A DNA stretch of 64,000 nucleotides, from the NCBI GenBank assembly GCA_905178155.1, contig CAJINV010000005.1:860564-924563 (forward strand), given 5' to 3'. The translations under genes and the position numbers were made by a program. The number at the start of each line of letters is the position of its first letter. Positions within the stretch are counted from its first letter, which is position 1. The notes beneath the pieces were generated by a model that saw only the letters and a program-made list of their open reading frames with translations, did not search any database and was not told where the DNA came from. Shown piece after piece: positions 7,101 to 57,400 of this stretch. Origin of the DNA: Amoebophrya sp. A120 (taxonomy: Eukaryota > Protista > Dinoflagellata).

Positions 7101-10100
7101 CATACATAAACTATCAAAAACGACCGTCTGACAAGGAACACGAAACATCACAGATCTGAACGTTTTATGAAAAGTACGGTTGTTAGGATTGTAGGTCGTC
7201 GTCGTGGTCGTGGTGGTCGCAGGCCAGTGAGCGAGCGAGTACGTTGGCATTTCGGGGAAAAAATCGTAATCCGAAACGCAGAAGATTTCCTCCGTTTCCC
7301 GCGGATTGGGGATGTCCGGTAGCGTATCCTGAGCAAAAACGTCCCCACACCAGAGTCAAGTTGGCAACTTAGCAACACAAATGTAGAAGCTTTGGGAGCC
7401 ACGCATGACAAGTTGCAGTCCGTAGTGTAGTGCAGGTTCGTAAGGACACCCGCAACACAAATCCACCTGCTCATCCTGTTTTCAGCATTACAAATTCCAC
7501 AACACCACTAGAAATGCCTCTCACGGGGACCCGCATTACAAATGTTTCTGTAGATGCAAATCTGCATTGCAACTATGGGGTGGGGACGTTTTTACACAGG
7601 ATATAGCGGGCTTGGAATCACGCGGTTGTCGCTGGCGTCGTATGGATTGCAAAAATGTCTGGGTCTGGATGATTGCAACTTGTCATGCTCGACCTGAATC
7701 AGGCAAAAAACTGTGTTGCATGATTGCCAAAGGTTGCGCACTTTTGACCTAATCGAGATGAGGCAGTTTCTCATGCAGGATAGGCATTAGAAAGGCCCCG
7801 CAGAGTCTGTCGTGCTATGTCCTACATACCGGACCTCATGGGCCATGGAAAACCTGCATGACAAATCTGGCAATCTTCCAGACCCAGACATTTTTGCAAT
7901 CCATACGTCGTAGAAGTAGTTGAAGCCCCTGGTTTCCGTCCTGTCGCACTGCGTGTAGCCGTACCGGCGGTAGTGGCCCGCGGGCGGAGTCACCAGGCAC
8001 TCGATGGGCGGGTCCTTCTCGTCGCTCGGCAACGGCGGGTCGCAGTCGCCGCCGTCGTACGTCCACTCCGGGCAGAACAGGTTGAAGCCATTTGACACGG
8101 TTCCGTCGTCGCAGGTTCCATCCCGCATCATGCCACTGCTCATGCCATCGAGCAATCCCTGGTCTGTGCAACGGTTCGCGCAGTCGCGCGGAAGCTGGAC
8201 ACCGCCCTCCTTGGAAGCGATAAGCCGACACTCGAGGGAAGAGGATCTGAGATGCGATACGAATTAGTTTTGCATGTGGGCGGTGAATTCGAATCTTATT
8301 GCATGATTCGTCGCCCTCATTCGACAATAAAACTTGCAAGTCCAAAACTCTTCCAAGTAGTACCTTCAAATAAACACAAACAACCATGCATAGTGATCAT
8401 CAGCAACATCACCGTACTGGTACTTACCTGAGCCCGTCGACATACGGGTGCGTAATTCCGATCTCGTGGTCGTGGATGTTGCCGCGGTAGATACTCTATG
8501 AAATGCAAAAATGTCTGGGTCTGGAAGATTTTAAACTTGTGATGCTGTCTCTGGATCCAAAAAAAATTTGTATTGCGTGACCAGCAAGACGACTCCATTT
8601 TGGGCTAAACGGAGAGGGCATTTCTCATGCGGTAGAGGCATCACAAAGTCCTGTATAAATCTGTGATGCTCGTGCATGCATTACAGACTTCACGGGTCAT
8701 GCAAAATATGCATGACAAATCTCGCAATCTTCCAGTCCCAGACATTTTTGCAATGCATATACTCGGCCGCGCGTACCCGATGATCCGGTTTGGTTCCGCT
8801 GTATGGAACTGTCAGGTTTGAAATCGTCAAAGTTGAAATAGTTTGTCATGCATAAAACGGATACCAGTTAGACCTACGGTTTGTAGTCGGTGCATGACAC
8901 CATTTTCCCGGTCCTGGAAGCGAGTCTGTCATGCGGTTTAGGGCAAAAGAGCTGCCTTCTGTCATGCTAGTCAGCAGTCCAACTTTTGACCCTTACCAGG
9001 ACTATAATCTGCCTCCCGTGGGTCCTCTGCAATAGAGTCACTTTTTGTGTCGCATTTTATGCATTACAAATTATTTCAACTTTGACGATTTCAAACCTGA
9101 CGCTTCCATACGCTGCGGACTCGTAGTACACCGTGTCCGGCCCTTCGTACGTGACCCAGAGCATCTTGTCCCGGTTCCGGGTGAGCATCTCTAACCTGAT
9201 GTAGTGATTCCCCGCTAAGTACACCTGTTTTCGCGTCTCCAGTCTCTTCTGCAGCGGCTCGTTCGTCAACTTTTGCAGGACGACTTCCGAGGAGAGTCCC
9301 CGGCCGCCGAAGAACATCTGGAACATGGCGTCCGTCTCGACCCGGATCGTGTAGTTCCCCGGCCGCTCGAAATTCACCACGCCCGTGAACCGGGCGGCGT
9401 ACGGCTTGGTGTAGTCGAAATCGGGGATCGGGATGGGGTCCGACACGTCCGTCCCGGTGTCCCGGCTCCACGGGTGCTGGTTCGGCCAGTTCGCGAGGCG
9501 GACCATCGGTTTCCCGTCGAGTTGCACTTCGGGGTGGAACGGGGTCACGAAGAACAGAATCTCGTGGAACGTCCGGCCGTAGTACTTCGGTTCGTCCGCG
9601 TTGAGAGGCGGTGGCGTTGTGGTGGGAGCTTTGGTAGAGGTCGAGGTGATAACCAGGGGCGTGGTGGTAGTCGTGGTCGTGGGAGCGAGAGTTTTCCAGT
9701 TCGGCGGGTCGGTCACCACGATCGCAACCTGGTCCGGCTCGGCTTGCAGGCCACGGGTGGAAGTTTCTTGATCTGTCTTGGTCTTTTCCTTGTTCTCGTT
9801 GTTCAGGATCTTGTTTTTCGCATTTATTTGTGGAAGAGATGAAGCTTTTTCAGCATGAGGCGCAGGTGCTGGATCGCCAGCTTTATCATTTTTCGAATCG
9901 TCAGAACCAGTCTTCTTCGCCGGCCCAAATGTCCCGGTATACGTGTTCCGCATCACCGGAGTGCGCTTCAGGAAAGTTGACGGGTTGCGCAAATACCCCC
10001 ACCAGGGGTCGTCGGCTTCGAACAGAGTGCGGTCATCCGGATGGTCCGAAATTTCCTTGAATTCCTTCTTTTGCATCTTCCGCACCTCTTCGGCCGCCAG

Positions 10101-25425: not shown

Positions 25426-27862
25426 CTATCTTAAGCAGCACCGCCATCTTCCGCCTCCGCATCGATTAACCTCCTCCGGCGACGCTACCCTGGCAAGCCG
25501 CTCCTCCGCAGTTTGTCTTGCTTCGCGCTCCTGCTATCATCTGTAAAAACGTCCCCACACCAGAGTCAAGATGGGAAATCTGCTAGACAAATCAGCCAGC
25601 TTTGGTCATTTGGCATGACAAGTTTCTCCTCGTAGTGTAATCCTGTTTAGGTAGTTCAGCAGCATTACAGATCTAGCACATCATGCAGATTATAGCATCA
25701 CAAATTCCAAAACACGACTAGAAAATGTCTCTCATTGCGCTCCGCATGACAAACTTTTTTGGCATGCAGATTTGCATGACAACTCTGGTGTGGGGACGTT
25801 TTTACTCAGGATACCTGCTGCACCGTGTGCATCAAGTTCTGCATTTCCGCATCCCGCGACTGCATATGGATTGTAAAAATGTCTGGGTCTGGAAGGTTGG
25901 AACTTGTCATGCTCAGTCTGGATAGTACAGAAATTTGTGTTGCATGATTACCAAAAGGCGTCCGCGTTTGAACAAGTGTAGCGGCAGTTTGTCATGCGGG
26001 ATAGACATGATAGAGACGTCACAGCAGCTGTCATGCTAAGTCCTGCATTGCAGACCTCTTGGGGCATGCAAAATATGCATGACAAATTCGCATTCTTCCA
26101 GACTCAGACATTTTTACATTTGATACTGCAGCACGTAACACAACTCCGCGTGGGTGTACTGCTGTATAGTTGCGACCTGCTGCTGCTGCATGACTCCTCC
26201 ACCTCCACCGTTAGGATACAACACTCTCCGTCCGTTCTCCCAGTGCGAACGGGCGGAAACCGACCCGTCGGTGGTTCCGTTGCTTCCACAGCTGGTGGAA
26301 TCATCTTCGTGGATGGTATGTGATGAGGAACTGGTTGCGGCTTTCGACGTTCGAGGCTTCTGCTGGCTATTCCAACTGTCATTTTTGTTCCGTGGAGAGT
26401 CTTGGTTTTGTCTCGTCCTGGCAAGAGTCGGCTCTTCTTTTTGGTGTTCTTGGCGGGGGGCCCCGGCGCCCGCAGTAGAGCTCCTCCGCCTACTCAACCT
26501 CCTTCGCGCTGCGGCGGCCTCGTGGTCTTGCTTTGTCGTTCTGTTTTCAGCTTTTTTCAACACAAACTCGTGGTCCAGAATTCCGTCCGCGTGGAGTCGT
26601 TGCTTCGGGTCGAGCGTCAGCAACGCGTCGAGCAGGGGAATGGCGTCTTCGGGGAGCAACGTCTTACCCCAACTGACCTCCCGGTTCAAAATCTTCCGGC
26701 AGAGGCTCGTCTGACTCCGGGCCTTGAAGGGCACGCGCCCCGTGAGCATCTCGTGCAGCAGGATGCCGAGACTCCAAGTATCCACCATCATGTCGTAGCC
26801 CTTTGGAGTGGATGGAGAGGACGATGAAGATGCTCGCGAAGGACCATTACTTGTTGCGTCAAGAGTGTCCTTATCTGTGGGGATTTCTTCGCCTTCGCTG
26901 CAGCTACTGCTACCGGTATTAACAGTGTGGCTTTGTTCGTCCTCTTCGGCCTGGTGTGCACAACCTCCTGGAGCAACAGCTACGTCGACCAAGCTTTGTT
27001 CCTCGCCAACCACACTAAGCGCAGCACTCGGTGTTCTTTCCACTTGTGAAGATGTAGGCGAGGCTGCAGCTCCTCCGCCTACCATGGTAAGTTTCAAAAT
27101 TTCCGGCGCTAAATAGTCCAAGGTCCCACAAAACGTCGTTCTGTCGGAGCCCTCGGCGGACCAGCCAAAGTCAGCCAATTTTGCGACTTTTTCGTCTTCC
27201 GTGACCAGAATGTTTTCTGGTTTCAAATCCCGGTGAACAACCTGCTGCTGGTGCAGAAACCCGACCGCCTGCGCTACGCCGGTGAACAACGGTAAGGCTT
27301 CGGCCTCCGCTAGGTACTTCTGTTTCCGCAGCAGTTCGTACAGATTGGTGGGCAGGAACTCCATCAAGATGCACTGAAACGCGGCTGCGGACAGGGGAAC
27401 GTCTTCGTTGAAGTTGCTTCGTTGATGTTCCGACTGGTCGTCGTGGTCCACTTCACCATCCTCCTGCTCTTCTGGCCTGTGGTCATCCCCTCTCGTCCTC
27501 CACGCGTTCAGAAATTTGACGATGTTGGGGTGGTCGGCGGCACAGAGGATGTCAATTTCCCGCTGTAACTGCTTCTCCAGCTCGTGCTCGCGTACGGTGG
27601 CCAGCGGAATCTTTTTCAGCGCAGCGACTTGGAGATGCGAAGTTTTTGTGGAGTCGCGCGGCTTCTCGGTCGATGTTGCAGCGGCGGAATCTACTGCGCC
27701 ATCTTCACTCGTCTTCAAGCTCGGTTGTAGCTCCTCGTCCTGTACTAGCAAGACCTTGTACACCTCCCCGAAAAAACCCCTTCCGACCAGCTGTTGCACC
27801 TGCAGCTTTGGTGCTGAGAATTGCGTGCGTCGGGATCGTTTTTCTTCTGTTGCGGTCGCCAT
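25426..27862 (-). CDS. Aurora-like Ser/Thr protein kinase
   Basis: GRGFFGEV, ALKK, QLQREIDIL..HPNIV, HRDLKPENIL, KLADFGWS...RTTFCGTLDYLAPE (Aurora signature), DTWSLG. The C-terminus is restored by removing two introners, ending at TAG 25428-25426. Confidence 0.9.
25535..25813. mobile_element. Introner family B, 279 bp
   Basis: Family B TIRs; TSD CCTGC. Join TVQQ-EREARQ. The sense-strand TSD GCAGG allows a GT-AG reading. Confidence 0.9.
25865..26125. mobile_element. Introner family A, 261 bp
   Basis: Family A TIRs; TSD CTGCA. Join CYVLQ-SRDAEM. Confidence 0.9.
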
Positions 27863-28288
27863 GGTTTTTGTGGTATGGAGCGGCCCAAATTATTCTTGAT
27901 TTCACTTTCCACGTAAGTAGCGAACATTTTTGAAGAGTGTCGCCATGAAAACAGGAGCTCTGTAAAATTTTTCGTGTGCCGCACTTACAATCCTTCCTGC
28001 TCTCAGACTTAGATTGCTGTGCGTGTTCTGATCTTGTTCTCACCTATCACTCTAACTGATTGGAAACTCGTCTCACCGTTCGCTTACCAGATGAACAAGC
28101 CACCCTTCCAACTTGCACATCGAAAACGAGCAGCACTGGCACAGCGTAGGCTGACATGCGGGCAACAAGCGCAGAGTGTATGACTCACACAGGTGATCGA
28201 CGGACCATGTGCCTGCAATAAAAAATCTTCTTTTACACTTCCGGATCTTGTTGTCTTAGACACGTCATCAACCCCCGTCTTCATCTCA

Positions 28289-29553: not shown

Positions 29554-32500
29554 TCAACGCGAACCCCGCAACGACGCAGGCGTGTCCGCAGACACTTTTT
29601 CCGCATGTGCTTCGCCGTCATCCACGAGCAGAAAAGCGTTAGGCGCGACAACGTTTGATGTCGCTTGTGGTTTACCGTCCACCGGTGCCAGCACGAGCAG
29701 CAATTTCTTCAAGTAATTGCTCGCTTTGTGCGCTGTTAGCATGGTCGCAGAAAACTCCAACTCGTCAAACGCTTCCGGCGAGGTGAGGATGTAGATCTGT
29801 CGGGGAGGTCGGGTACTACTATTACCACCTCCTTCTTGCACGCATTCCGGCTTGTCTTCCGCTTCGTTCGGCAAATACAGCACGCTTTCTCCGGCCGGGC
29901 GCCAGGTTTTTTTGTGAAAAAACTTTTTCTGCGCTTTCTGGATATCGAGCCACAATGATTTCTTCTGCGCTGTCTCCTGGATGTCATCGTCCCCGCGCTC
30001 CCTCTTGATGCGCAACAGCACTGCCAGCTCCTTTGCCATCACGTAGGCGACGCGTTGCGGGGAGTTCAGCCGCGGCACGGCGTCGTCGCCCGCCACCGTG
30101 CCGAGAAAAGTGTCAAAGGGGAAGTGTGTGTTTCCGTCCACGACGCCGGGAATCGCGTGTGCATACCCCAGCACGGTGATATTTGGACCAAATTCCACAC
30201 TATCACTCCACAGCTTGTACACCCACGTCGCTGTCGCGGCCCCGAGCGAGTGGCCCGTGACGATGACGGTGTTGAAAGTCTCGGCGTTGTCCCCTTCTTG
30301 TAAAAACTTGCGCACCGGCTCGGACGCTTTGTCCGCCAGGGTCTTATGGGAGTGTCAGGATTGAAATCGTCAAAGTTGAAATGATTTGCCATGCATAAAA
30401 TGCGACACAGAAATTGACTCTATTGCAGAGGACGCACGGGAGGCAGAGTATAGTCCTGGCAAGGGTCAAAAGTTGGACTGCTGACTAGGATGACAGAAGG
30501 CAGCTCTTTTGCCCTAAACCGCATGACAGACTCGCTTCCAGGACCGGGAAAATTTGTCACGCACCGACTACAAACTGTAGGTCTAACTGGTATCCGTTTT
30601 ATGCATCACAAATCATTTCAACTTTGACGATTTCAATCCTGAAGCTTCCATAGGTCTTTGCGGCGACGTAAATCGCGGGATGCGCGTTCTTATGGAGTGC
30701 AAATATGTCTGGGCCTCGAAGATTGCAACCTGCCATGCTAAATCCGAATCATGCAGAAATCTGTGCTGCATGAGTACCAAAAGCTGTCCAATTTCGACCA
30801 AGTGAAGTAGTAGTAGTAGTACCATTTAACTCCTGGCGGGTCGGCGTTAGAACAGATTTAGCCTCTGCCAATACCTGGGCGTTAGAACAGATTTAGCCTC
30901 TGCCGATACCCCTAGGTGGAGACTCGGCCCACTTCCTAACTACCACCCGGCTGCACCTGCTAAACCGCTATCGATTGCTTACGCATGACTACAACCAGTG
31001 GGCGCTATGTGTGGCTGACCTGCCTTACCATCCAAGCCCGCGAGCAAGGTGGAGTTCCAGTATTGCCTTGATGGGTTAGTCTTACAAACTTGCTCGAAGA
31101 ACTACGTGCGTGGCCGGTTGCGCGCTAAAAAGTATACTGGGGGTCTAATGATCAGACACGGTGATCCTATCACGATGGCGGGCAACCCAACGGCGTGTCC
31201 CTTTCAGACACGTTTTGCCGATCTTTTTCCCAAGTGTGGAGGGGGTTTCTCATGCAGGATAGGCATGGCGATGGCAGAGACCTCACAGACTCTGTCATGC
31301 TAGGTCCCGCATTTCAGACCTCATGGGTCATGGGAAACCTGCATGACAAGTTTACACTCTTCCAGACCCAGACATATTTGCATTTGACCAAGCAACAGAT
31401 AGACCATCTATGGATGATCGTCTTTGGGTGATCTCCTCTACCGAATCGGAGGTGTGCAAGAGCCCTAACCAAGCGTGGTGGACTCACCCCAAACGGAGTC
31501 GAAACGCAACGACGCACCCAAAGAACCCTACATAAGCTACGCGCAATGGAGATGAATTTGGGAAACCTAGCCCACCCCACGCACAGGGCGAGGCGACGAC
31601 ACCTACCGATTGCAGCCTCAAACGCACCTGGCAAAGAACATCGTAATAAAAGTGCGTCCATATGAATGAAGACATAAGAAGCGGCAATATTACAGTCTAC
31701 TCAAAAGGGAAGAGCTAAAGTAGCATCATCTTCACGCTGCACATACGATGATCATAGTAAAGAGCGAAGCCCTACTTGGGTCGTCCGGAGAGGAAGACAT
31801 AGGACGGCTACACACCCGGAACCGCGCCCCCCGACCATGTGGCTCACTACTTCTTGCTGGCGTTGTGTATTTTCCAAGTGGCAGCGACGTTAATATTCGC
31901 CCACGGCATTTTTTCGCTGTACTTGCGAACCTCTTCTTCGGATTGCGGCGATGTAAATCGCAGGGTCTTTGCGGCGACGTAAATCGCGGGATGCGCGTTC
32001 TCGCCATCCAGAGAATCAATGCAAACATAAGACATATGACAGCTTTCACTTGTCTTTCTTCCGCAGGGCCATTTGTCTTAGGGGAAAACTTTAAATCTTG
32101 AAGTTCACCTTCCTTCTAAAATGTACTTATAAATATACTTCTTCTGTTTTTTTTTACCTTACTTTCACCTTACGCGCAAGCCTCCACTTCTATCTTTTTC
32201 TTTTTTGGAAAGATTTGAGGTCCTCAGGGGCATCCGGGGTGGTGTTTTCATGATGTATTTCGAAGCTACTATACCACGTCCCTTCATTTGCCCCTGTCGT
32301 TGACGTATGTGTTTCAGATCCCCAGAAGATCTTCTCCAATTAGAGACCCTGCAAGCAGATTAAGAACGGGAGATCAAGAAGCTTGCACCTGCGATCCATC
32401 GGGATCGCGCATCATCTTCTACCCAAGCCAATTCACCAAAGACAAGCAAAAATGTGCTTACTCGATTTTTACAAGCAGAAAGAGAAACAGTCATACGTGA

Positions 32501-35500
32501 CCGGTATGGCGAGGTTGATCCAGCTCAACTTCTTGTAGGAGCTTCTGCTGCAGCCTAAGCTCTGGCTGCAACTTGTGCTGCGTCTTCCGGAGTTGCGTGC
32601 AGCTACCGCTGCAGCAACATCTGCCGACTGCAACACTCTGGAGGTCGCTGCTGCGCCACCATGGTTGTGTTGCTTCTTTTACTTCTACTTTCACGTCTCG
32701 CACTCGCTACAACATGCGTCGTCGACGGATGTTGAGCAAGGAGACTTTTGCCCTTTCTAGCGCCTTGCGCTACTCTGGCACTCCAAGTGCGGCATAGCCA
32801 CACAGGGAGGCGACTACAGCCCTGAGCATGGGTGGCTCGTCCGCTGCTCTAGTGCAGGGACATATACGGGGGAAGGGGGCTAGTAGTTCTTACCTTTCCC
32901 ACTGGGGGAATGGTTGGGCTCATAACTCTGTGGACGTCTCAAGCGTCAGGGACTAGGCATGCTCACTAGCATGCTGTCCGAAGATAGAGAACAGAGTTAC
33001 TATCTAAGCACCTACCTAGTAGGTACTACGGAGAGAAAGGGCTTTTTATTCTTCCAGCTACTGGCCCGTAAACCAGAAGCCATTCTGGCACTGTGTGTGT
33101 ACGTTGTTACCATTGGCACGATTATCATCATCACCATTCTAGTGGTGTGCTGTCCTGTGTGACCCATGTGACCCATGTGGTCCTAGTGATCCTAGTACTT
33201 TGATCCTACTCGTGTGACCCCTCTAGGCTAGTACTTTGATCCTACATCTCTGATCTCATTGATCTCAGGAGCATGCTAGCAACTGCTCTAGTCCGAGACA
33301 GGTTGCTGCGCAATAAGGGTCTTTGCGGCGACGTAAATCGCGGGATGCGCGTTCTTATAAAATGCAAAAATATCTGGGTCTGGAAGGATGCAACTTCTGA
33401 TGCTGTCTTCGGATTCGAAAAAAATCTGTGTTGCATGACCAGCAAGAGGAGTCGATTTTGTGCTACGCGGAGAGGGCATTTGTCATGCTTAACAGACTGC
33501 GCGACTAAAGCCCGGGGGGGTGCGGGGTCCGAGGGGTGCACATTGCACGGCCCGGAACACCCGAACATGCCCCGCGACTGGCACAGGACCAGCAACACAA
33601 CTATTATCGCCGATCTCAGTTTGTCGATCACGACGTAGCTGCGAAGCCGTCCATACGCCTGGCGCCCCAAGCCCAAATCAACCCCCGAGGAAAGGCCTCG
33701 ACCCAAGAGGAACCGATTATGAGCTTACGGAACGACGAGCTAGAGCGCCTGTTTCTGGGAAGGAAGATACTTGATGCTTCTCCCCACTGCAAAACTGGGA
33801 CTGGCTGGTGGGCGCTGGAATGCAGGGAACTGACGGGTTGTTACACAGCAGGACGCCAGTCTTCGAGACGAGGGCATGGTGGTCCCGTAGCACGCGAGAT
33901 GCGGGTGAAGGCGCGGCTCAGTCAGAGGGACGGGTGGCCCTGCTGAAGCGACGTGAGGTTATCGGCGGGCGGAGGGGAATCGAGCTGTCGGATTTGCCAT
34001 AGAACCGCTGAGATGAAAAACAGGCGCCGATTACCGGTTGTAGGCTGGAGAGGCGGGGTTGGTGGTGTGGACAGTCCTTCACCATCTACAGATCGGGCAG
34101 CTACCATGAGTGTCCACGTACACCTTAGAGACGTGGGCCACAGCGGTAGGTCAGGATGATCGGACTAAGACGTATACGACCCTGGGCACCACTCCGCGAT
34201 CTGCTTCGCCAGGGCACGACGGCGAGATTCCGGGTCGTCGGGAGGAGGGGAGGAGCTGCGTTTTGCTACGTGAGACAACGTGGTCTGGGGAGGTGTCGGA
34301 GGACGAAGTCTCGCACGAGGACTTCTACTGCGGTTGATGGCATTTGTCATGCAGTATACGCATCAGAAAGCCCTCAAAAAGTCTGTGATGCTAGGGCATG
34401 CATCACAGACATCTGCGGCGACGTAAATCGCATGCATCACAGCCAGGGTCTTTGCGGCGACGTAAATCGCGGGATGCGCGTTCTTATGGAGTGCAAATAT
34501 GTCTGGGTCTGGAAGGATGCAACTTCTGATGCTGTCTTCGGATTCGAAAAAAATCTGTGTTGCATGACCAGCAAGAGGAGTCGATTTTGTGCTACGCGGA
34601 GAGGGCATTTGTCATGCAGTATACGCATCAGAAAGCCCTCAAAAAGTCTGTGATGCTAGGGCATGCATCACAGACATCATGGGTCATGCAAAATGTGCAT
34701 GGCAAGTCTTGCACTATTCCAGACCCAGACATATTTGCAATCCATAGTTCTCGCCATCCAGATCCTGCTTCGTCAACAGGTTCGCACCAAACCAGGATTC
34801 GAAGGTGTCCGCAAATTTCTCCGACACCGTGGCAAACCGCAAGTCCGTCGCGGCGTCGTCGAGATCTTGGGTCCCGCGAATTGCGAGGATGAGCGCTTTC
34901 CGGTCTTTGTCAGCGACGACGATGTACGCCGGTTCCTTCATTTCCGACTGGTAGTCGGCGGCGAGAATCGTGACCGAATTTTTGGAAGTAGCGTCAAACC
35001 CGGAGCCGAATGCGAAGTGCGGCCCGCTCCCGCGACTTTGCTCCGCGTTGTCCTGCAGTCGCGTCCGGAACGCTTCTTCACTCGCCTTGTAGACCGCATC
35101 GGAGTAGGCAATCGTCCGGTACAGATCCTGCTTCCGCTGCCGCCAGCTGACAACCTTTTCCCCGTTCGCGGACTTCGGGGGTGGCAGCGTCTTTTCGAAA
35201 AACCGGCACTGCAAGTCCAAATACTCGAAGAAAGCGGACGGCAGTTTGGCCAAATTCATGCCGAGTTCCTGCACAGCAAACCACCCGGCCTCGGCTAAGC
35301 GACCGAATTTCAGGGCGACTTGGAACAACTGCTTCATCTGTGCGGAGTACTCGGCACTCTTCTCTACCAGCGGGAGCAGTTTCTCGGAGGCAAACTTGGC
35401 CGCATGTTCTTTCACGTCCGCCCACTTCGCTTGGATGGTGTGCTGCAGAGTTTTCAACTTCTCAGCAAAAACCTCCTCTGCGTCCGAGAGCGCGTCGACC

Positions 35501-35778
35501 GCTTCATCGTACAAGTGTCCCAGCGCCTGTTCGAAGCTCCAAAAGGACGAGGCTCTTCCGGCCAGAGCGGATTGGGATTGATCCTGTGCTGTGGCATGCT
35601 TATCGAAATCAACCTCCGCTTCTGAAGTGACGTCCGCCACTACTATGGCCGAAGATCCAAAGTTGTGCCGCTCGGCAGATGTAAACAAGAGTGCGCAAGT
35701 TAGATCAATCGGTAGTCGGGCGACACTGCAGAACAACAGCGCAGCCAAGGCCGTGTGGCTTGATCTGGTCCGCGACAT
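29554..35778 (-). CDS. Class-3 lipase family protein, interrupted by a complex 4.4-kb introner locus (functional status uncertain)
   Basis: N-terminal exon: signal-like start and AYIVVADKDRKALILAIRGTQDLDDAATDL. Micro-exon: AHPAIYVAAK. C-terminal exon: VIVTGHSLGAATA (GxSxG), DDAVPRL and a distal His. Confidence 0.85.
30345..30652. mobile_element. Introner family C, 308 bp, opposite orientation to 8802-9110
   Basis: Family C TIRs; TSD GGTCT. The internal sequence matches the reverse complement of the 8802 copy. Join YVAAKT-LADK. Confidence 0.92.
30691..31387. mobile_element. Family A introner split by a 425-bp insertion, right end damaged
   Basis: Left TIR follows GTTCT. Element sequence resumes at about 31230. 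The right TIR ends CATTTGA with no terminal TA and no TSD. Confidence 0.8.
30805..31229 (-). mobile_element. 425-bp insertion with a (TAG)n end and 7-bp flanking duplication; possible non-LTR retroelement fragment
   Basis: CCAAGTG on both sides (30798-30804 and 31230-31236). Begins AAGTAGTAGTAGTAGTACC. Contains an internal 33-bp direct repeat GGCGTTAGAACAGATTTAGCCTCTGCC(A/G)ATACC x2. Retroelement identity and strand are inference. Confidence 0.5.
33356..34413. mobile_element. Truncated family A introner split by an 850-bp insertion (33489-34338)
   Basis: Nearly identical to 34485-34746. The insertion is flanked by the 14-bp duplication GGCATTTGTCATGC (33475-33488 and 34339-34352). No right TIR. 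Confidence 0.8.
34485..34746. mobile_element. Introner family A, 262 bp
   Basis: Family A TIRs; TSD GTTCT. Join DLDGEN-AHPAIY. Confidence 0.92.
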
Positions 35779-40210: not shown

Positions 40211-43200
40211 TCATCCTTTTATCAAATTCTTGACGACCCCAAACCTGTCCCAGAGCTCGGACAGCAGCGCCTCCCGCTCCGCGTCTGCGTCGTCCAGAAT
40301 GGCGCTCAAGTCGCGCATAAAGCGCTGCTTCTGGTCCTCAAGCTCGCTGATCTCGTCCCACAAAGGCTGCGCTTTCGACAACTGTTGGTCGTACTTTTCC
40401 TTCGTGACCCGTTCCCGCTGGGTCGCGAGCGTAACCGACTCCTGCAACACCTGATGCCGCTCGAGCAGCGGAGAGACGGCGGGTATCTTATTTGGAACTG
40501 CGGGTCTGCTGTTCGGCGTTTGCTGTGAAGAAGTTGAGGTGGAAGTGGGTTCTTCTTTTGGAGGGTTGCTATTTCTTTGTGAAGAGGAACCTTCGGAGGT
40601 CGAGGACAGAACCTTGCAGATATCCAGCAGCTCGTCCACCTCCCGCTCGCGTTGCTTTTGCGCCGAATCCTTTTCCGTCTGGTAAAACTCAACCCGCAAG
40701 TCCCTGACCTGTTTCTGCCGGGTCGCCAGTTCGTGCGAGATACTGGTCAACCGGGTCTGCAGCACGATCGCGTCCTGCTCCACCTGCTGCTGCAGTTTCT
40801 GCAGGTACTGCTTACAGGAGAGCAAGTCGGCGACCCGGAAGAGCACGTAGCGGTTGGTCAGGAGGTTGTGCAACGACGTGAATCCGCCACACCCGCTGGC
40901 CGTCGCGTTCATGTCCGCGTCGTCCGGTTCTATTTTTTCGAAAAAGTCTTTCCCCGGGATCAGCTTCAGCGCGGCGACCTCCTCCGGGGTTTTGTTGGCA
41001 ACGTTCTTGCTCTGCCGCTGCACGTCCTCCAGCTTCACAGGCGGCCTCCGCAGCCGTCGCGCTTTGAACACCGGCGAGCCGGGCGCGCCGGCCTGGTCCG
41101 AGCACTCAAAATGCCGCATGTCCACCCGCAGCATCTTGTCAGTGTAGTCGAAGCCCTCGGGGAGAACCTCAAATCGCGGCTCCCATTTCGAGGATATCGT
41201 AAATTGCGGGGTCGCTGGCGGCTGCTCAGAAGGTGTGCTATAATTTTCCTTCGCTGTAGTTGCATTTGCGGACGGTGGGGTGCTCGGCGCTGATTCATCT
41301 CTACTATATCCGGCGCTGTTCTTACTGATCGTTTTTTTACTGGTCTGACTTTCATGATCTGCTGTTGTAACTGTGGCTTCTGCATTCTTCGTCTCTACTG
41401 CTTTCGGTAGTGAAGCTTCCTTCTCCAGGGATGCAGCGATTTTTCCGGTGCTTTCCTGCGACGAAAACGAGTTCCCATCTGTTGATTTGCTCTTCTCCTC
41501 CTTCTCGTGCACGCCCTTAGCGCCACTGCTTTGAGGTGTTCCACTCCTTCTCGGTGCGACAGGCACTCGTATTTTGTGTTCCACCATCGAAAAGCCGTTC
41601 AGCACGGCGTAGAATCTTTGCACGAGAAATTTCCTCGCGACTAGCCGCAACTTTGGGAGGTCCACTTCCAACCCGTGATCGTACAGGTGCTGCGCCACGA
41701 CCATCTGCACCCGCCTCACCATCGTTTCGTCTTGCAAAAAATCCAGCGTGGTGATCTGCACGGCGCTGCTGTCCTCTGGCGCGGACTATCCTGTGCAAAA
41801 GTATCGTATTCGTAGTAATGGCATTCATGCATTTACAGATCTCTTTCTCAAGGTGAATCAGCATTACAAATTCAATAATGTAATGCTGGGCTACTTTGTC
41901 ATGCAATTTAGACTAGTACGATGCTTTTGCATTGCATACGGACGAGGAGTTGACAAAAACCACATGCTATCAAATGCAAAAATGTCTGGGTCTGGAAGAT
42001 TCATCCTGTTTTTGTATGACACAGAAGGTCTGGCATGGAAGATCTAGCATCACAGGTTTCGAGAACCTTCCGCGGTGCCGAATTCGCATGACAAATCCCC
42101 CATTTTGCTGGCAGAAAGTGGGCAGCTTTTGCTACCTATGCATAAGAGATTTTTCTGTCTTCTGAAATGCGCATCACAAGTTTGTATTCTTCCAGACCCA
42201 GACATATTTGCAATCCATACCTGCTCCGGCGTCACTTCCACCCGCTCGACCTCGCGAGCCAAGTTCGAACTTCGCTCGTTGCTATGGCTACTGCTGCTTG
42301 TCCCGCTGGCAAAGGTAGTAACTACAGTGGCACTTCTATCACTTTTCGTGCCGTTCATGCTGGAGCTCGCGGTCAAAAACGGGTTTTCCAGTCTCGGTTG
42401 TCGCCCGTTCCTGCTGCTGGCAGGGGAGGAAAATCGGTCGTCGTTTTCCCGACGTTTCTCTTGCTTTTCATGCGTTTCCTCCTCCTCTTCGCTTCCCTCC
42501 AGTCCAGAAAACGCGCCGCCAGTAGCGAGGTCGTCGCCCGTTTTCGAGGTCGATACGGAAAGTTCCTCGACTAGCTTGGAATATTCTATGCTGTTCGTCG
42601 TGTGGTCTTTACCAGTGGCACCACCAGCGGTACTTCTAGAGGAAAGGTTCTTGTTAGTCTCGTCTTTTATTGTGTCGTGTTGTGCTTTTTTTCTACTGCC
42701 CCCGCCACTCGTCCCCTCCAGCCACTGCTGCTGCGACAGCAGCATGTCCCTGCGAACGCACTTCGCCAGAAAGTCCCGTATAACCCGCCCAGGTGTTACA
42801 ATCTCAAACGTTACAATAGAATATGGAAATCTGTGATGCAAGAGTGCATGATCTAGCCAACTCTCATAGGATTGCGCTTTACAAGTTCCGGAGCCCCAAA
42901 CCCCAATATAATCTGGCGGAAGTTGTATTGCAAAAGGTAGAACGCTGTGCGAGTCTGTCATGCTCATCATGCAACACAACTTCCAGATTTTATTGTAACG
43001 TTTGAGATTGTAACGTTTGAGCAAGTCATATCCCGGACCCTCGATTTCTGCGAGTGCATCACCCGCGACAGCTCCTCCAAACTGGTGACCTGTTCGACGG
43101 GCTTCTTGAGCAACCGGAGCAGCCCGGACCCGATCGCAAACAGCGCCGCCCAGCCGCGCAGAAGAAAGGCGTCCCAGAAGAAACCGCAGACCAGCGGATC

Positions 43201-45597: not shown

Positions 45598-48500
45598 TCA
45601 GTCCTCGTCATCCTCCTCATCGTCATCGTCATCAGCAAACAACCAGTCGTCGTTTGTTTCCACGTGCTCAAAAATCTGCCCGCCCGGCGCGAGGTCCTCC
45701 AGTCCTGCGGGAGCGGCAGAAGTAGTAGCTGTGGTATTGCTTGCTGCGCCTCCTGACGGATCCAGTTTCCTTCTTTTGGCATTATCGGAGGGAAAATTTT
45801 CGTCGTCGATTTCGTCGTCGTCTTCCATCAGAACGTCGTCCTCGTCTAGAAGACCACTGCGGAGTGTGCCGTGATTCGAAGCGCTGCCTTCTCCCGTGGC
45901 TGTCATCAACACGTCGTCTTCCAGAATAGCCGGCAAGGCGGCCCCGGCGTTGGCTGCAGAAGCCCCAGCTGGAGTAGTTTGTGGCTTCAGCATAGCTGCG
46001 CTGGAAGTAGATGCCGCTTGGTTCGGAGCTGCTGTTTTGAAGGGGAAATTATTTTTTCCTGCCCCTTTATTGATGATCCCGGCGCCCTTTTTCAAATCTA
46101 CACCGTCGTGGAAATCTGCGGAAACGATCCGCCCGTCAAATTTCCGCCCGTTGTAGTGCGACTTGTACATCTCAGCCTCATCCGGATCCTCAAACTGGAC
46201 CGTGACAAACCCTCGGTCCGCCGCGCCCAGGAAGGCCATAATGCGGACGGGAGGCTTCACCTGATTTTTGATTTTTCCTTTGCATTGAATTTCTTCGAAA
46301 CAAACAATTGGCTTCAACAAGAAACGCACTAATTGCCGTCAAAATCTTACTGTCACCAAAAATTTTTGCCATAGGTACGCCTAACGAGCACTGCTGAGTG
46401 AGGAGGAACAAGAACTGATAAACTGCAATTTTTTTGTACAAAGAAATACAAATACTAGCCATACAACATAGTCAGTGAATATAAAGTAAGTACTTTGTCC
46501 TGCTTCCCCGCCCGGCCCGGCAGCACGGCATCCCGGGCAAACGCGGCCTGCTGCGATTCCAACTTGGTCCGCGCCTGCGGGTTCCAGTCCAGGTAGTCTT
46601 CCAGAATGTCTTCGTATCAAATGTAAAAGTGTCTGGGTCTGGAAGGATCCGAACTTGTGATGCGCATTTTAGAACACAGAAAAATCTCTCATGCATAGGT
46701 AGCAAAAGCTGCCCACTTTCTGTCACCAAAATGGGGGACTTCTCATGCGGGTTCGGCATTGCGGAAGCTGCCTTCTCGAAACCTGTGATGCTAGAGCTTC
46801 CATGCCAGAACTTCTTTGTCATGCAAAAACAGCATGACTCTTCCAGACCCAGACATTTTTACATTTCGTACTTCGCGCAGTTCGTCGATGTAGCTCTGCT
46901 CCGTCCGGCCGGATTGGAGAATGGACTGCTTGTCGAACACGTTCCGCAACACGATCTGACACCGCAACTTCATCGCCCGTGCGCTGTCGTCCTCGTCCAT
47001 CCAGCTGTTCTGCATCTGCTTCTTCCGCGACCACTGGTTTTTGTTCTTCTGCGCCCCCGCGCCCTTCCCGGTCCAGTCCGCAGTGCCCCCGGTCTGCGCA
47101 ATCCGCTCCTTCAGGGCCGCCGTGGACAGTTGCTCCTTTTTGTACTCCGCGACCTGCACACTGATGAAGGACTTCTCGCCCGAATGCTCCGCGACGATCT
47201 CCTGCCCGTGGAACCGGTCAATGGCCTGCTGCACGGACTCCTTCCGGACAAATTTCACCAACCCGTCGCCCCGCGGCTCGTCCGTGCCGTCCTTCTTGTA
47301 CAGCTTGATGCTCGGTTCCTTCGTGGCGGGGTCGACCACGATGACGCCGCACTTCTTGAAAATCTCGTACAGCTCTCCGACCGTGATGGAGAGCGGTAAC
47401 TGGGACAGGTAAATGTCTGACACGTTCTTGCTCGCATTGTACACCCCCGCGAGCTTCTCGATTTTTTTCTTCTCCCGCCATCGCTTCCTTTTCAGTGCGT
47501 TTTTGGACAGCGGTTTGTTGTTCTCGTCGGTGTCGTCAACTAGAGATTCAGGATTTATTATTTTTCCACCCGATGTTGAATTGTTGTCCTGCTGTTGCTG
47601 CAGCGCGGATGCGGAACTAGCACTACCCGCTTGGGGTAATCTACTAGCACTGGAAGATGACGACGTCGCAGCCCCGTTTCCGACGAGGAGCGCAGAAGAA
47701 CTGCTGCTCGGTAGTACACCGTTACCACTAATATTCCCGTTTTTCGGTAGGGCAGCCGACTTTGAAGAGGTCGTCGCCACCATGGGTTCATCTCCGTCCG
47801 CAAATATTTCCTGCAGCACGGAAGTCCCTGGGACGCCGTCCCGATCCTCCGGGGAGCTGGACTATCCTGTGCAAAACAAGTATCGTACTCGTATAAATGC
47901 AAGTCTTGCATATTTTTCTTAAGGTAATTCAGCATGACAAATTTTATTTCTCATGCTGAAAAAATTTGCAATGCATTTATACGAGTGCGATACTTCTTTT
48001 GCAATGCATATGGACTGAATCTGGTTGATTTCTTGCTCAAGCTCCCTCCTTTCCTGTTCGGCCTTGACAAGGAGCTCATAATCCTCCACCGGACGCCAAC
48101 ACTCATCCACAATATCCCAGATCAACCTGATGTGGTGAGAAAAAATAATTTTGACTTCTTTTTGTTTGCTTCGTTTCCAGCAAGAGTGTATCGGAATTAT
48201 ATCGAATATAATCGAACCAACAGTTTCTTCGCAACTTTCCAACAAGGGGGGCCAGCGCGCTGTGAAGCGGTGGAGGCAAAAAAAAAAACGAGCGTAGGAG
48301 GAGGAGACGAGATCAACCTACTAGCCGATCTGTATCAGAGAGCAGAGGAGGTGCAGGATGAAAATAGCCCTCACAACATCTACTCCGAGGCGGAGAGCAA
48401 GCGGGCCAACGTCCCAGCAGGCGCGCATGAAAGATGATGAAAGAGCAAAGAATGAATTCATGTTTCATCAGAATTCGATTATCATTGTCAAGAATCGGTT

Positions 48501-54486: not shown

Positions 54487-57400
54487 TCAGTCCACCTTTT
54501 TGTTGCTCGAATAAGTAGTGGCGTCACCTTCATCTTTCCCAGCCTCTTGATCCGGCTTCTGCTCCGCAATGCTCGTGTGCTTCAAGTTGGGGAATTTGTT
54601 GCCATTGCAATGCTATCCTGTGCAAAAGTATCGTACTCGTATAAATGCAAGGCTTGCATTACAAATCTTTCCATCAAGGTAAAACCGCATTACAAATTCC
54701 ATTTCTAATGCTGAGGAAATTTGTATTGCAATTCATACTAGTACGATGCTTTTGCAGTTCATAAATGCTGGAAGTAGGTGAGAAGCAAATACTCGCAGTA
54801 ATCCAGGCCCAATTGCGTGAGAAAGAAGAAGATCGGGAGGGTGAACAGTAGCTGTCTTTTTGTCGGCAAGAACAGGGACGCAAACGACAATCCGAGCATA
54901 CTTAATTACCACGTCACGTACGGATCAATTGCGCAGAGTAGCTTTTTTTTTCGGAATCCAGATGTTGACCAGCGCACGCAGATAGCATCGCATCGATCCA
55001 AAAAGTCAGCACTTACAAGCTGACGGAAGATCGTGTTCACATTTCGCACAATTCTTTCGAAGGACTCTTTGAAAACATGGGGGAACAAAGTACTCAGTTA
55101 GAAAAAACCGCCTCCGCGTTTTTGTACTATCGCCTGCATCTTCATGAGTTCACAGGGATCGATTGGATGCGCCACGGGATGCATGTTTTTTGTTTCGCAG
55201 AAAAAGTTCACTGAGTTTCTTTCTCTTTTGCTCCTTCGCTGTTTTTCGCAGAAGATCGCTGACTCCAAAAACATCACCATCAGTAGTGTTCGCTCTTCTT
55301 CTCACTCTTGTTACAAGCCTGCTGGTTGTAATGTGGTTGATTGTGTTTCTCCATTTGCATCTGGTGCAGCAGTAAAATCCACCATCCCCTGCAGAAAAAA
55401 ATAGGCCGTGTGGTTCTGTCGGAACGGAAGTACAACCAGAATGTCGTCCCCCTCCCCCGGTGTCGACGTCGCGGACCGATAGTTCGGCTGTCTACTCCGA
55501 TTGGTCCTCGAGCTTCTTCGCTTGAAAATCGTAATCGATATCCAAATGCCAGTACCACGATACCCAGTTCTCCAAATAGGCCGCATAGTTCTCAAACGGC
55601 GGTGTAGCTGGTCTTCTTGCATCCACGATGGCAACGTCGCCGCTCGCTTCCGCATCCCACCACATCCATTTCGCGACATCCACGTCGTCGTACATCAACG
55701 CGACTCGTTGCGCCGGGTTGCTGCACGCATTTGGAGCAGCAAGGTCGAAATACGTTCCGCACTGCGGGAGCGCTGCCGAATGGAAGTAGTATACATCCCT
55801 AACCTGCGACTTCATGTCGTGGTTTATTGCACGAAGATCGCCCAAGGGGCGGTGCCAAGCGAGCATCGCAGGAAAGAAGGGGAGGCTCCACACGAGCAGC
55901 ATCACAACCACCTCGAAGGAGTACAAAAGGCGTGGCAGCAGGAGACTCGTGTCTGTAGGTACCAGCGTCCCTCCCGCAACCCGCACAATCCTCGCCGAAG
56001 ACTCGCGGCCGTCACCTCTTCTTGTTTTCTTCGATACCGTTAGCAAAAGAGAAAAAAAGGCGCAGCCGAAGCCGCTGACGAATGCGAGCAGAACGGTCCC
56101 CACCCTGAAACGATAAATGCTGGGATGTGATGTCTCCTGCGGGTACACGCCGTGACATTCCGAAAATGGAGTTGCGAACAGTTTCGTCGAGAGCCGTCGG
56201 TCAAGCCGACGGTTCGAAAAATAGTCGTCTACCGCGCCGCCCGGTTTCCTGAATAAATTGCCGGCGTTATCAAAATCAAAAATCTCCCCTCCCCATATCT
56301 TTATCAAAGTGGAAACCTGTGCTGCGGCACTTGTGTGCATGTCTTGCGGTAGAGGACTGCACGCAGATCCTAAGCCTAGGCGGGGGCCTCTTGGTGTAGG
56401 CACCTAGCATGGCAGCCGTCTGTCCTGCAGGACGACTTGCAGCGTTACAAACCGCCTGCATGACGCGGCGAACTCTCTGCCTTTGCCTTCTTGCATGACA
56501 AAGCGGATTTGTGGTCACGAATCTGCATCACAAATTTTCGGAAGGATGCGCTTTCAACATGGGAGGGGCGGATTTTTCATCACAATAGATGTTGACGCCC
56601 TCGCCGACGAAAAGTTGCAGAGTCTCAGAGACTATCAACTGCAAACATGTCTGGGTCTGGAAGATTTCTCGATTTGGTTGGTTGATTGGGTAGCGCCTGT
56701 CGCCGGTGCACGTCCCGCCCTCTATCGATTGCGATCCGGAGTAGCCGGAGCACAAGGCCCCGGGACACAATTCGTCATGCAGCTTTTCGTCCAAGCTCCC
56801 CCAAGTCGGAAAGCATCACAGGTTCTGCAGCCCCTTGGTGATGCCTATTATGCATGAAGAAGGCCCTCTCAGCATGGCCCGAAGTAGGGGTAGGCACCTT
56901 TTGAGAGTCATGCATCAACGATCTTTGTGTGATCCGCAACAACAGGCATCACAAGTTCGGATCCTTCCAGACCCAGACATATTTGCAGTTAATAGAGAAA
57001 AGAAGCACACCGATTGATATTCCCGCCAATCCGCCGTGGATGGACTTTAGCCACCATTGATTTCGCACCCAGAAGGCTTCTTGGGCACTGGTAATGGGGG
57101 CGCTGCGCGTACTGGTGGCGCTTTGGTGCGGATCGCGATCGCCCTGCGACGTGTGGGAGTGTGTGACGTCCTGCTGTTGTCCGGACCCGACCGTAGGAAT
57201 CGCCGCGACCAAGATGAAGAGGATGTTCGGAACCAGTAACCAAACCATCCGGGCCGCCACCTCCTCCAGAGAACCGGCCTCAATCAAACCGGTCTGGGAA
57301 TTGGCAAGATCGTTCGTGTCGGCTCCGTTCCCCGGACACCACAGCGGGTACAGGTTGAAGGTGTAGCGACTGAGTATCGTGGAGAACGCATAGCAGACGA

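What the first reader, a model, noticed from the sequence alone, without database searches (positions are those of the whole stretch)
30340..34751. One lipase micro-exon preserved four times in different intron-occupancy states
Seen: GGTCTTTGCGGCGACGTAAATCGCGGGATGCGCGTTCT occurs at 30653-30690 (between a C and an A introner). At 31961-32012 it has NO introner at either site and reads through 11 nt into the next exon (GTTCT-CGCCATCCAGA). At 33316-33355 and 34442-34484 an A introner is present but the C site is empty (GCCAG-GGTCT-TTG at 34442; only 2 nt of support at 33316). Copies are 1.1-1.35 kb apart, separated by unrelated DNA. Inference: either reverse-transcribed fully and partly spliced mRNA was written back into the locus, or successive duplications froze the order empty -> A -> A+C, or repeated breakage at this site was repaired with captured DNA. 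Any of these would be a direct record of how these introns are gained or lost.
Basis: partly seen in the sequence, partly recalled or inferred. Interest (0 to 1): 0.85.

Follow-up and report, generated by a model that had tools for sequence, protein, structure and literature searches.

The report
Repair scar swelling a transposon intron
A 38-base exon of a lipase gene sits four times in a 4-kb stretch, one copy with its neighbouring transposon-intron cleanly missing, most likely because repeated DNA-break repair re-copied the exon while the introns were already there, so it likely records intron removal rather than the order of intron gain.

Summary
Four identical 38-nt micro-exon copies lie in a minus-strand class-3 lipase gene. 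Copy 2 reads 11 nt into the next exon with no A introner. Contigs of two samples (two studies) bridge both junctions of copy 2, so it is not an assembly error. The GCCAG junction of copy 4 was not seen in listed contigs.

Corrections:
- The 1.1-1.35 kb spacing is accidental. An 850-nt insert with a 14-nt target duplication sits inside the third A element; without it copies 3 and 4 are 265 nt apart.
- The first A element is only 74% like the last.
- The spacer DNA is not wholly unrelated. Short patches of micro-exon and A-introner sequence flank copies 2 and 4.

A was therefore probably present when the A-empty copy was made, which argues against a frozen empty->A->A+C series. C may have arrived last.

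Best reading (0.55): repeated break repair with template switching, which skipped the A hairpin through its 5-nt repeats. A spliced-mRNA template for copy 2 (0.25) gives the same letters and cannot be excluded. The whole 4,056-nt unit still has inverted-repeat ends; only splicing to copy 1 gives the 616-aa lipase.

The parts
34747..35778 (-). Lipase exon 1 (ATG at 35778; includes the right 5-nt target repeat of the A site)
   Evidence: Open frame; the RNA-type contig of X1 carries the last 14 nt of the micro-exon as its loose end, i.e. a spliced junction
34485..34746 (.). A4: intact 262-nt A-family introner, 38-nt arms 89% complementary, 5-nt target duplication
   Evidence: ssDNA fold z -10.3
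34442..34484 (-). Micro-exon copy 4 with 5 nt of exon-3 end (C site empty); joining exon 1 here gives a 382-aa product without the GHSLG motif
   Evidence: left junction not seen in listed contigs
34414..34442 (+). Templated junction patch: 18 nt of micro-exon, then 13 nt of A4 body (2-nt overlap)
34339..34413 (.). A3 second part (A4 positions 120-194, 0 mismatches), truncated
   Evidence: bridged to X4 by DNA and RNA contigs
33489..34338 (.). X4: 850-nt insert inside A3 with a 14-nt target duplication; left ~190 nt repeated elsewhere; retro-like (inferred)
   Evidence: no protein family found
33356..33488 (.). A3 first part: identical to A4 except 5 changes, all in the first 17 nt
   Evidence: copy 3-A3 junction in a DNA contig
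33316..33355 (-). Micro-exon copy 3 with 2 nt of exon-3 end
   Evidence: DNA contigs 33288-33345 in X2 and X4
32600..33315 (.). Right part of a repeated element ('D', left limit approximate) whose other copies diverge at 33315; it ends in ATA like the introner termini
   Evidence: Loose ends in X1-X4, depth and variants; no partner inverted end in the window
32058..32600 (.). Filler DNA, single contig without variants in the DNA run; source unknown
32013..32057 (.). Patchwork of 7-9-nt A-family pieces in both orientations, best matched by A1
31961..32012 (-). Micro-exon copy 2: 3 nt of exon 3 + micro-exon + 11 nt of exon 1; both introner sites empty (52 nt)
   Evidence: both junctions bridged in DNA (X2) and RNA-type (X1) contigs
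31935..31961 (+). Templated patch: 10 nt of A3/A4 body overlapping a 19-nt micro-exon piece (1 mismatch)
31388..31934 (.). X2: filler DNA of unknown source
31230..31387 (.). A1 right half, lacking the last 2 nt of its terminal repeat
30805..31229 (-). X1: 425-nt insert inside A1 with a 7-nt target duplication and a short triplet-repeat tail; repeated elsewhere; LINE-like (inferred)
30691..30804 (.). A1 left half: first 23 nt identical to A4, whole element 74% to A4; supplies the left arm of the 4,056-nt composite intron 30691-34746
30653..30690 (-). Micro-exon copy 1, the only copy joined to exon 3 through C (33 coding nt after splicing)
30345..30652 (.). C introner, 308 nt, 56-nt arms, 5-nt target duplication; spliced out in RNA-type contigs
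   Evidence: exon3-micro-exon joint in X1, absent in X2
29554..30344 (-). Lipase exon 3 (GHSLG motif; Pfam Lipase_3, 25.5 bits against a cut-off of 22)

Best explanation
The four micro-exon copies are likely the scar of repeated DNA-break repair at the edge of a hairpin-forming transposon-intron, in which a poorly processive polymerase re-copied the exon several times and once skipped the A element through its 5-nt end repeats. Shown: the structure, the templated patches, the two later-style inserts with target duplications, and splicing of both sites in RNA-type contigs. Inferred steps: (1) The gene carried an A element. The spot 33-38 nt from A's left end was cut, plausibly by the introner transposase, since C and the end of element D both land there and 5 of 21 neighbouring-element gaps in the window are 29-51 nt. 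(2) The broken end repeatedly invaded a template that lacked C (a sister or pre-insertion chromatid). It copied the micro-exon plus part of what followed, disengaged, added short local patches and foreign filler, and re-entered 2-5 nt left of the C site. This could be one event or up to three. (3) In one pass, synthesis stalled at the base of the A hairpin and re-primed on the second 5-nt repeat, giving the A-empty copy 2. (4) C was present or arrived only at copy 1; X1 and X4 inserted into A1 and A3. Consequence (predicted): the right arm of A4 can pair with three left arms, and only the farthest (A1) restores the 616-aa lipase, so the gene is likely leaky or partly disabled.
For: Templated patches: 18+13 nt left of copy 4 and 10+19 nt left of copy 2 (a 10-mer hit at that spot has background about 0.009). 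A-family patchwork in both orientations right of copy 2: 31 of 45 nt by 8-mers against 0.0003 of 3702 background windows. All three extra copies start 2-5 nt from the C site. The copy 3-copy 4 unit is a 265-nt tandem duplication with a templated junction. A4 folds into a strong hairpin that juxtaposes the only two copies of the 5-nt repeat within about 300 nt. Inverted patches cannot come from the sense mRNA, so DNA-templated synthesis acted at the copy-2 junction (inference). Matching repair products are described for transposon-excision breaks in Drosophila (PMC2895639, passages; PMC5728401, passages), and microhomology-mediated intron loss is described in PMC3698931 (abstract). RNA duplex energies of the A4 right arm: -57.1 with A4 left, -51.1 with A1 left, -47.0 with A3 left. 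RNA-type contigs cover much of the 4-kb intron.
Against: Copy 2 is empty at both sites at once, which is exactly what a spliced mRNA looks like. The right-hand patchwork is A-family-like but not specific to A1: other members of the window cover up to 29 of 45 nt against 33 for A1, and the template sets were chosen after looking (12 comparisons per word length). The model needs an extra exchange to explain why A1 shares A4's first 23 nt while A3 does not. No donor for the unique filler was found, and the DNA run shows it as single contigs without variants, whereas copying from elsewhere in the genome should leave a donor. Two retro-like inserts suggest that reverse transcriptase has acted here.
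Confidence: 0.55

Rival explanations
1. Same break-repair event, but copy 2 (and perhaps the C-empty starts of copies 3 and 4) was templated by spliced or partly spliced lipase RNA, through a repair polymerase or a LINE reverse transcriptase finishing the insertion of element D.
For: Copy 2 spans two exact splice junctions, and both junctions exist in RNA-type contigs. The extra copies and the micro-exon patches all lie in the orientation of cDNA of this gene. Retro-like inserts X1 and X4 are in the same intron. Consecutive precise intron deletions are taken as the signature of RNA-templated repair in human cells (PMC12065846, passages).
Against: Each site has a perfect 5-nt repeat, so DNA skipping gives identical letters. 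The C side has only 2-5 nt of support. Independent cDNA pieces should not all start within 5 nt of one junction. There is no poly(A) or 3'-exon sequence. Inverted A-family patches at the same junction need a DNA template. No RT domain was found in any insert (24 frames against Pfam).
Confidence: 0.25
2. Successive local duplications froze the history: copy 2 was made before A arrived, copies 3 and 4 after A but before C.
For: The states are nested (none, A, A+C). No C-specific patch appears at the junctions examined, so C arriving last is plausible.
Against: A-derived patches flank copy 2 on both sides. Before A existed, a kilobase insertion in this exon could not have been hidden in an inverted-repeat intron (inference). 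Two different A members (74% alike) would have had to hit the same 5-nt site in separate copies, although target repeats in the window show no shared sequence.
Confidence: 0.08
3. The array is a mosaic of different alleles or strains (C+A1; empty; A3/A4) brought together by unequal recombination at the micro-exon.
For: It explains two different A members at one site; parallel intron gains at one position are common in Daphnia (PMC4202315, abstract).
Against: It needs three or four alleles. Exons 1 and 3 show no second allele or close paralogue in the DNA run (no variant rows in the exons). It does not explain the templated patches.
Confidence: 0.07
4. Mis-assembly or collapse of loci.
For: No listed contig spans the array; three junctions and the block order are unconfirmed.
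Against: Most junctions are bridged, copy 2 in two samples of two studies; the window has no N. The 3x depth of the micro-exon-A contig in X4 fits several copies, though contig depth is a poor copy count.
Confidence: 0.05

Closest known systems
Introner elements of Amoebophrya (Farhat et al. 2021, PMC7789003; passages and section 11 read)
   Same: Non-canonical introns with terminal inverted repeats starting TAT, 3-5-nt direct repeats, repeated families. The A and C elements match this description, which is my only basis for placing the window in this lineage.
   Different: That study analysed introns of 40-1000 nt. In the passages read there is no multi-kilobase composite introner holding exon copies or emptied sites. 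Its supplement was not read.
Polymerase-theta / synthesis-dependent MMEJ after aborted gap repair at P-element breaks (PMC2895639 and PMC5728401, passages)
   Same: Short insertions templated from flanking DNA, occasional mismatch, several rounds of annealing and synthesis, at a transposon-made break.
   Different: Here the scar is kilobases long, contains three exon copies and foreign filler, and sits in a spliceable transposon. The enzyme is unknown in this lineage; the dinoflagellate repair review has 0 hits for POLQ or theta.
Pack-TIRs by gap filling / template switching (PMC8277862, passages) and repair-mediated duplications (PMC2671141, abstract)
   Same: An inverted-repeat element that has swallowed nearby and other DNA by template switching; single-copy product.
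   Different: The captured piece is the element's own flanking exon, repeatedly, and once without the element.
Microhomology-mediated intron loss (PMC3698931, abstract) and whole-intron deletion by RNA-templated repair (PMC12065846, passages)
   Same: A precise exon-exon junction in genomic DNA.
   Different: The native introns are kept; the emptied junction is an extra 52-nt copy inside the intron.
Composite insertions from reversed-end Ac/Ds transposition in maize (PMC4270019, abstract)
   Same: Two nearby transposon ends facing each other; duplications with transposon termini and aborted re-replication.
   Different: The duplicated unit here is the piece between the ends, with 2-5 nt of exon-3 sequence; there is no new target duplication at a distant site.

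Membership tests
Amoebophrya-type introner (A4, C) | Terminal inverted repeats beginning TAT | tested here: met
   description
Amoebophrya-type introner (A4, C) | 3-5-nt direct repeats at the borders | tested here: met
   5-nt repeats
Amoebophrya-type introner (A4, C) | Repeated family | tested here: met
   Other members in the window; thousands of family contigs laid in the DNA run
Amoebophrya-type introner (A4, C) | Removed from RNA | tested here: met
   Exon3-micro-exon joint and exon1-micro-exon loose end in X1; X1 being RNA is the tool's guess; which micro-exon copy is used cannot be told
Theta-type / SD-MMEJ templated insertion | Junction insertions copied from nearby DNA, direct and inverted | tested here: met
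Theta-type / SD-MMEJ templated insertion | Microhomology at patch joints | tested here: inconclusive
   Overlaps of 1-2 nt only; not tested against chance
Theta-type / SD-MMEJ templated insertion | Dependence on polymerase theta / presence of POLQ | not testable with these tools
   No whole genome held
RNA-templated whole-intron deletion | Precise exon-exon junction in genomic DNA | tested here: met
   Copy 2, 11 nt on the A side
RNA-templated whole-intron deletion | Consecutive junctions not explicable by microhomology | tested here: not met
   Both sites carry perfect 5-nt repeats; the C side has 3 nt of support
RNA-templated whole-intron deletion | Native intron replaced in place | tested here: not met
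   C and A4 are still present
Processed retrocopy | mRNA 3' end with poly(A) and flanking target duplication | tested here: not met
   Internal 52-nt piece only
Non-LTR retro-insertion (X1, X4) | Variable-length target duplication, one-sided repeat abundance | tested here: met
   7 and 14 nt; repeat cover
Non-LTR retro-insertion (X1, X4) | Homology to an RT/endonuclease element | tested here: inconclusive
   No Pfam family in 24 frames; the single phmmer hit is a spurious repeat match
Reversed-end composite insertion | Breakpoints exactly at element termini with a new target duplication | tested here: inconclusive
   Only D ends at a terminus; the extra copies start 2-5 nt outside C's end
Lipase class 3 (PF01764) | Profile score above cut-off; GHSLG motif | tested here: met
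   25.5 bits against 22 on exon 3; motif

The most novel reading that the evidence does not exclude
Spliced mRNA of this gene was written back into its own locus during repair of an introner-made break, and copy 2 is a trapped intermediate of RNA-templated intron loss in a lineage being flooded by new introns. Such trapped junctions could be counted genome-wide to measure the RNA and DNA routes of introner loss directly.
Probability: 0.25. Interest if true: 0.8.

Novelty: new variant of a known kind. Interest (0 to 1): 0.5.

Why it matters
How introners are lost is usually inferred from comparisons between species. Here a precisely emptied site exists in the same molecule as the filled sites and was probably made after the element arrived, so precise removal does happen in this genome. 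Similar scars elsewhere would let one test RNA versus DNA loss by asking whether repeat-less introns are also skipped. The locus also suggests a cost of hairpin-defined splicing: duplicating an arm creates competing partners, and the nearest, strongest one gives a truncated protein. As a single locus whose letters cannot separate the two routes, it is a lead rather than a result.

Tried and rejected
- No whole genome is held, so the genome-wide junction scan and the search for filler donors or POLQ could not be run.
- Metagenome scans for the gene found nothing: by protein, 479 pattern hits and 0 confirmed; by a micro-exon pattern, 0. No other strain's allele was seen.
- No holder on record as RNA was listed. 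The two raw RNA runs laid (X9, X10; 2 of 3 offered) gave 0 reads, which is no test.
- Parts without cover: X1 has no contig over 34412-34441, none joining A4 to exon 1 unspliced, and none beyond 35855; holes prove nothing.
- Contig depths in X1 (exon 3 243, intron pieces 23-104, exon 1 23) hint that the large intron is often retained, but the tool states that contig depth cannot rank parts of a gene, so I do not count it.
- Inserts: no Pfam family at E<0.05 in 24 read-through frames. X4's open frame gave one spurious repeat hit and no Atlas hit.
- A recalled resemblance of X2's end to nucleoredoxin motifs, and of X4 to a LINE zinc knuckle, found no support.
- No left inverted end for D in the window.
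- A close paralogue as donor of the empty copy was rejected: no variant rows in the exons.
- Dating A4 by private variants was dropped because the variants are shared with other family contigs.
- Patches left of copy 3 and right of A1 were not significant.
- Earlier scan notes: 3 look-ups, nothing returned.
- Ten literature searches listed no report of exon copies with emptied introner sites inside an introner. The library lacks most subscription papers, and no supplements were read.


Full report
Setting. Genes in this part of the window lie on the minus strand and are interrupted by 150-310-nt elements with inverted ends starting TAT and 5-nt target duplications. This matches the introner elements described for the parasitic dinoflagellate relative Amoebophrya (PMC7789003, passages and section 11); the lineage is inferred from that match only. 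The gene in question starts at 35778. Exon 1, the micro-exon and exon 3, spliced by removing each element with one target repeat, give an open 616-aa frame with a GHSLG motif. Exon 3 hits Pfam Lipase_3 just above the cut-off.

The observation. The 38-mer occurs exactly four times. Copy 1 follows C. Copies 2, 3 and 4 follow 3, 2 and 5 nt of the exon-3 end, and copy 2 runs 11 nt into exon 1. None of the other 16 elements tested has a duplicated flank or an emptied-site match beyond 3 nt on both sides. Contigs of public runs support the structure. A DNA-type run (X2) bridges both sides of copy 2, both sides of copy 3, exon 3-C, X4-A3 and A4-exon 1; X4 repeats part of this. These runs may be the source of the window. 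An RNA-type run of another sample and study (X1) bridges copy 1-A1-X1-A1-X2-copy 2-exon 1(11)-filler in overlapping pieces. Three junctions were not among the listed pieces (C-copy 1, A3-X4, the left of copy 4), and contigs cannot phase across the 38-nt repeat. The 5-nt C-empty evidence at copy 4 and the block order therefore rest on the assembly alone.

(1) 30691-34746 is itself an inverted-repeat unit with the A-site target repeat on both sides. (2) A1 is a different family member from A4 (74%) but shares its first 23 nt. It lacks its last 2 nt and carries a 425-nt insert with a 7-nt duplication and a triplet-repeat tail. (3) A3 is positions 1-194 of A4 with 5 changes confined to the first 17 nt, split by an 850-nt insert with a 14-nt duplication. 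Without that insert copies 3 and 4 are 265 nt apart, so the regular spacing is accidental. (4) Left of copy 4 lie 18 nt of micro-exon and 13 nt of A body. Left of copy 2 lie 10 nt of A3/A4 body and 19 nt of micro-exon (background for the 10-mer about 0.009). (5) The 45 nt right of copy 2 are covered for 31 nt by 8-mers of A1 in both orientations, against 0.0003 of 3702 background windows. Other A members cover 7-29 nt by 7-mers against 33 for A1, so the patchwork is A-family-derived but not provably from A1. (6) The DNA left of copy 3 is the end of another repeat whose other copies diverge at 33315 and which ends in ATA.

Mechanism. Short locally templated patches at duplication junctions are the mark of synthesis-dependent end joining after aborted gap repair, as described at P-element breaks (PMC2895639 and PMC5728401, passages). 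All extra copies begin within 5 nt of the C target, and D ends 2 nt from it, so this point was cut more than once or re-entered repeatedly. A transposase cut is plausible because elements in this window cluster at such distances: 5 of 21 gaps are 29-51 nt and the next is 283 (P 9e-5 for uniform placement, 0.03 if only a quarter of the window is usable). The C-empty starts are simplest if the template lacked C (C arriving last or during the event). The A-empty state was probably made with A at hand, given the patches on both sides. It is then a removal, not a relic. A4 folds into a hairpin (z -10.3) that brings together the only two copies of its 5-nt repeat nearby, so a polymerase stalling at the stem and re-priming gives exactly the spliced letters. 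A spliced-RNA template gives the same letters; it is documented in human cells (PMC12065846, passages), and retro-like inserts suggest RT activity here. The sequence cannot decide. I favour DNA (0.55 against 0.25) because inverted patches at the same junction need a DNA template, the starts cluster at one point, and microhomology favours intron loss elsewhere (PMC3698931, abstract). Unexplained: the exchanged left ends of A3 and A4 relative to A1, and the absence of visible donors for the unique filler.

Consequence. Both splice junctions exist in RNA-type contigs (exon3-micro-exon joint in X1 and not in X2; exon 1 contig ending in micro-exon sequence), and RNA-type contigs also cover much of the large intron. 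The right arm of A4 can pair with the left arms of A4, A1 or A3 (-57.1, -51.1, -47.0 kcal/mol). Joining to copy 4 or 3 gives 382- or 364-aa products without the catalytic motif. The gene is predicted to be partly mis-spliced; which copy is used could not be measured.

Comparison and novelty. The elements are ordinary members of a described introner class, which includes DNA- and retro-derived families (PMC12130899, passages; PMC9860276, passages). The scar works like Pack-TIR gap filling and repair-mediated duplication (PMC8277862, passages; PMC2671141, abstract) and resembles maize composite insertions (PMC4270019, abstract) and break-driven lengthening of new Daphnia introns (PMC4202315, abstract). 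LINE 5' ends can be finished by template jumping or end joining (PMC2912911, passages), which keeps the RT variant open. It is not a retrocopy or an in-place whole-intron deletion. Ten searches listed no report of emptied exon copies inside an introner; other papers in those listings were seen as listings only, and no supplements were read. Verdict: real, a new variant of a known kind of repair scar, interest 0.5. It is valuable mainly as the template for a genome-wide test of RNA versus DNA routes of introner loss.

Noticed in passing
window 7325-7905, 8497-9110, 25535-26125, 30345-30691, 41787-42219: Introners come in close pairs: 5 of 21 neighbour gaps are 29-51 nt (next 283 nt), each pair joining an A-family element to a different family and creating a micro-exon. 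P 9e-5 under uniform placement, 0.03 in the most cautious setting. Suggests insertion targeted next to a resident element; one literature search listed nothing on it.
   Followed up: partly
window 33489-34338 and loose ends at 33655 in runs X1, X3: X4 is inserted at a conserved A-family motif, and another copy of X4 in the RNA-type runs also runs into that motif after about 12 nt. This may be a retro-element that targets introners; the analogy to Xenopus Tx1L is recalled, not checked.
   Followed up: partly
window 30805-31229: X1, a repeated 425-nt insert with a triplet-repeat tail and an internal 35-nt tandem duplication, inside A1; two of the three A copies at this locus carry retro-like inserts.
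   Followed up: partly
window 56633-56994: An A-family element about 100 nt longer than its relatives because of an internal insert unrelated to X1 or X4.
   Followed up: no
window 41968-42219 and 46615-46870: A-family elements with one change in the target repeat (41968) or in the terminal triplet (46615); useful for testing whether splicing needs perfect ends.
   Followed up: no
window 31388-31934 and 32058-32600: Filler DNA that appears without variants or second copies in the DNA run where covered; a donor in the same genome was expected. Capture of host or other foreign DNA is an untested possibility.
   Followed up: partly
window 26117-27889: Protein kinase gene (Pfam Pkinase, E 2.5e-47) whose large exon ends at a B+A introner pair.
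   Followed up: no
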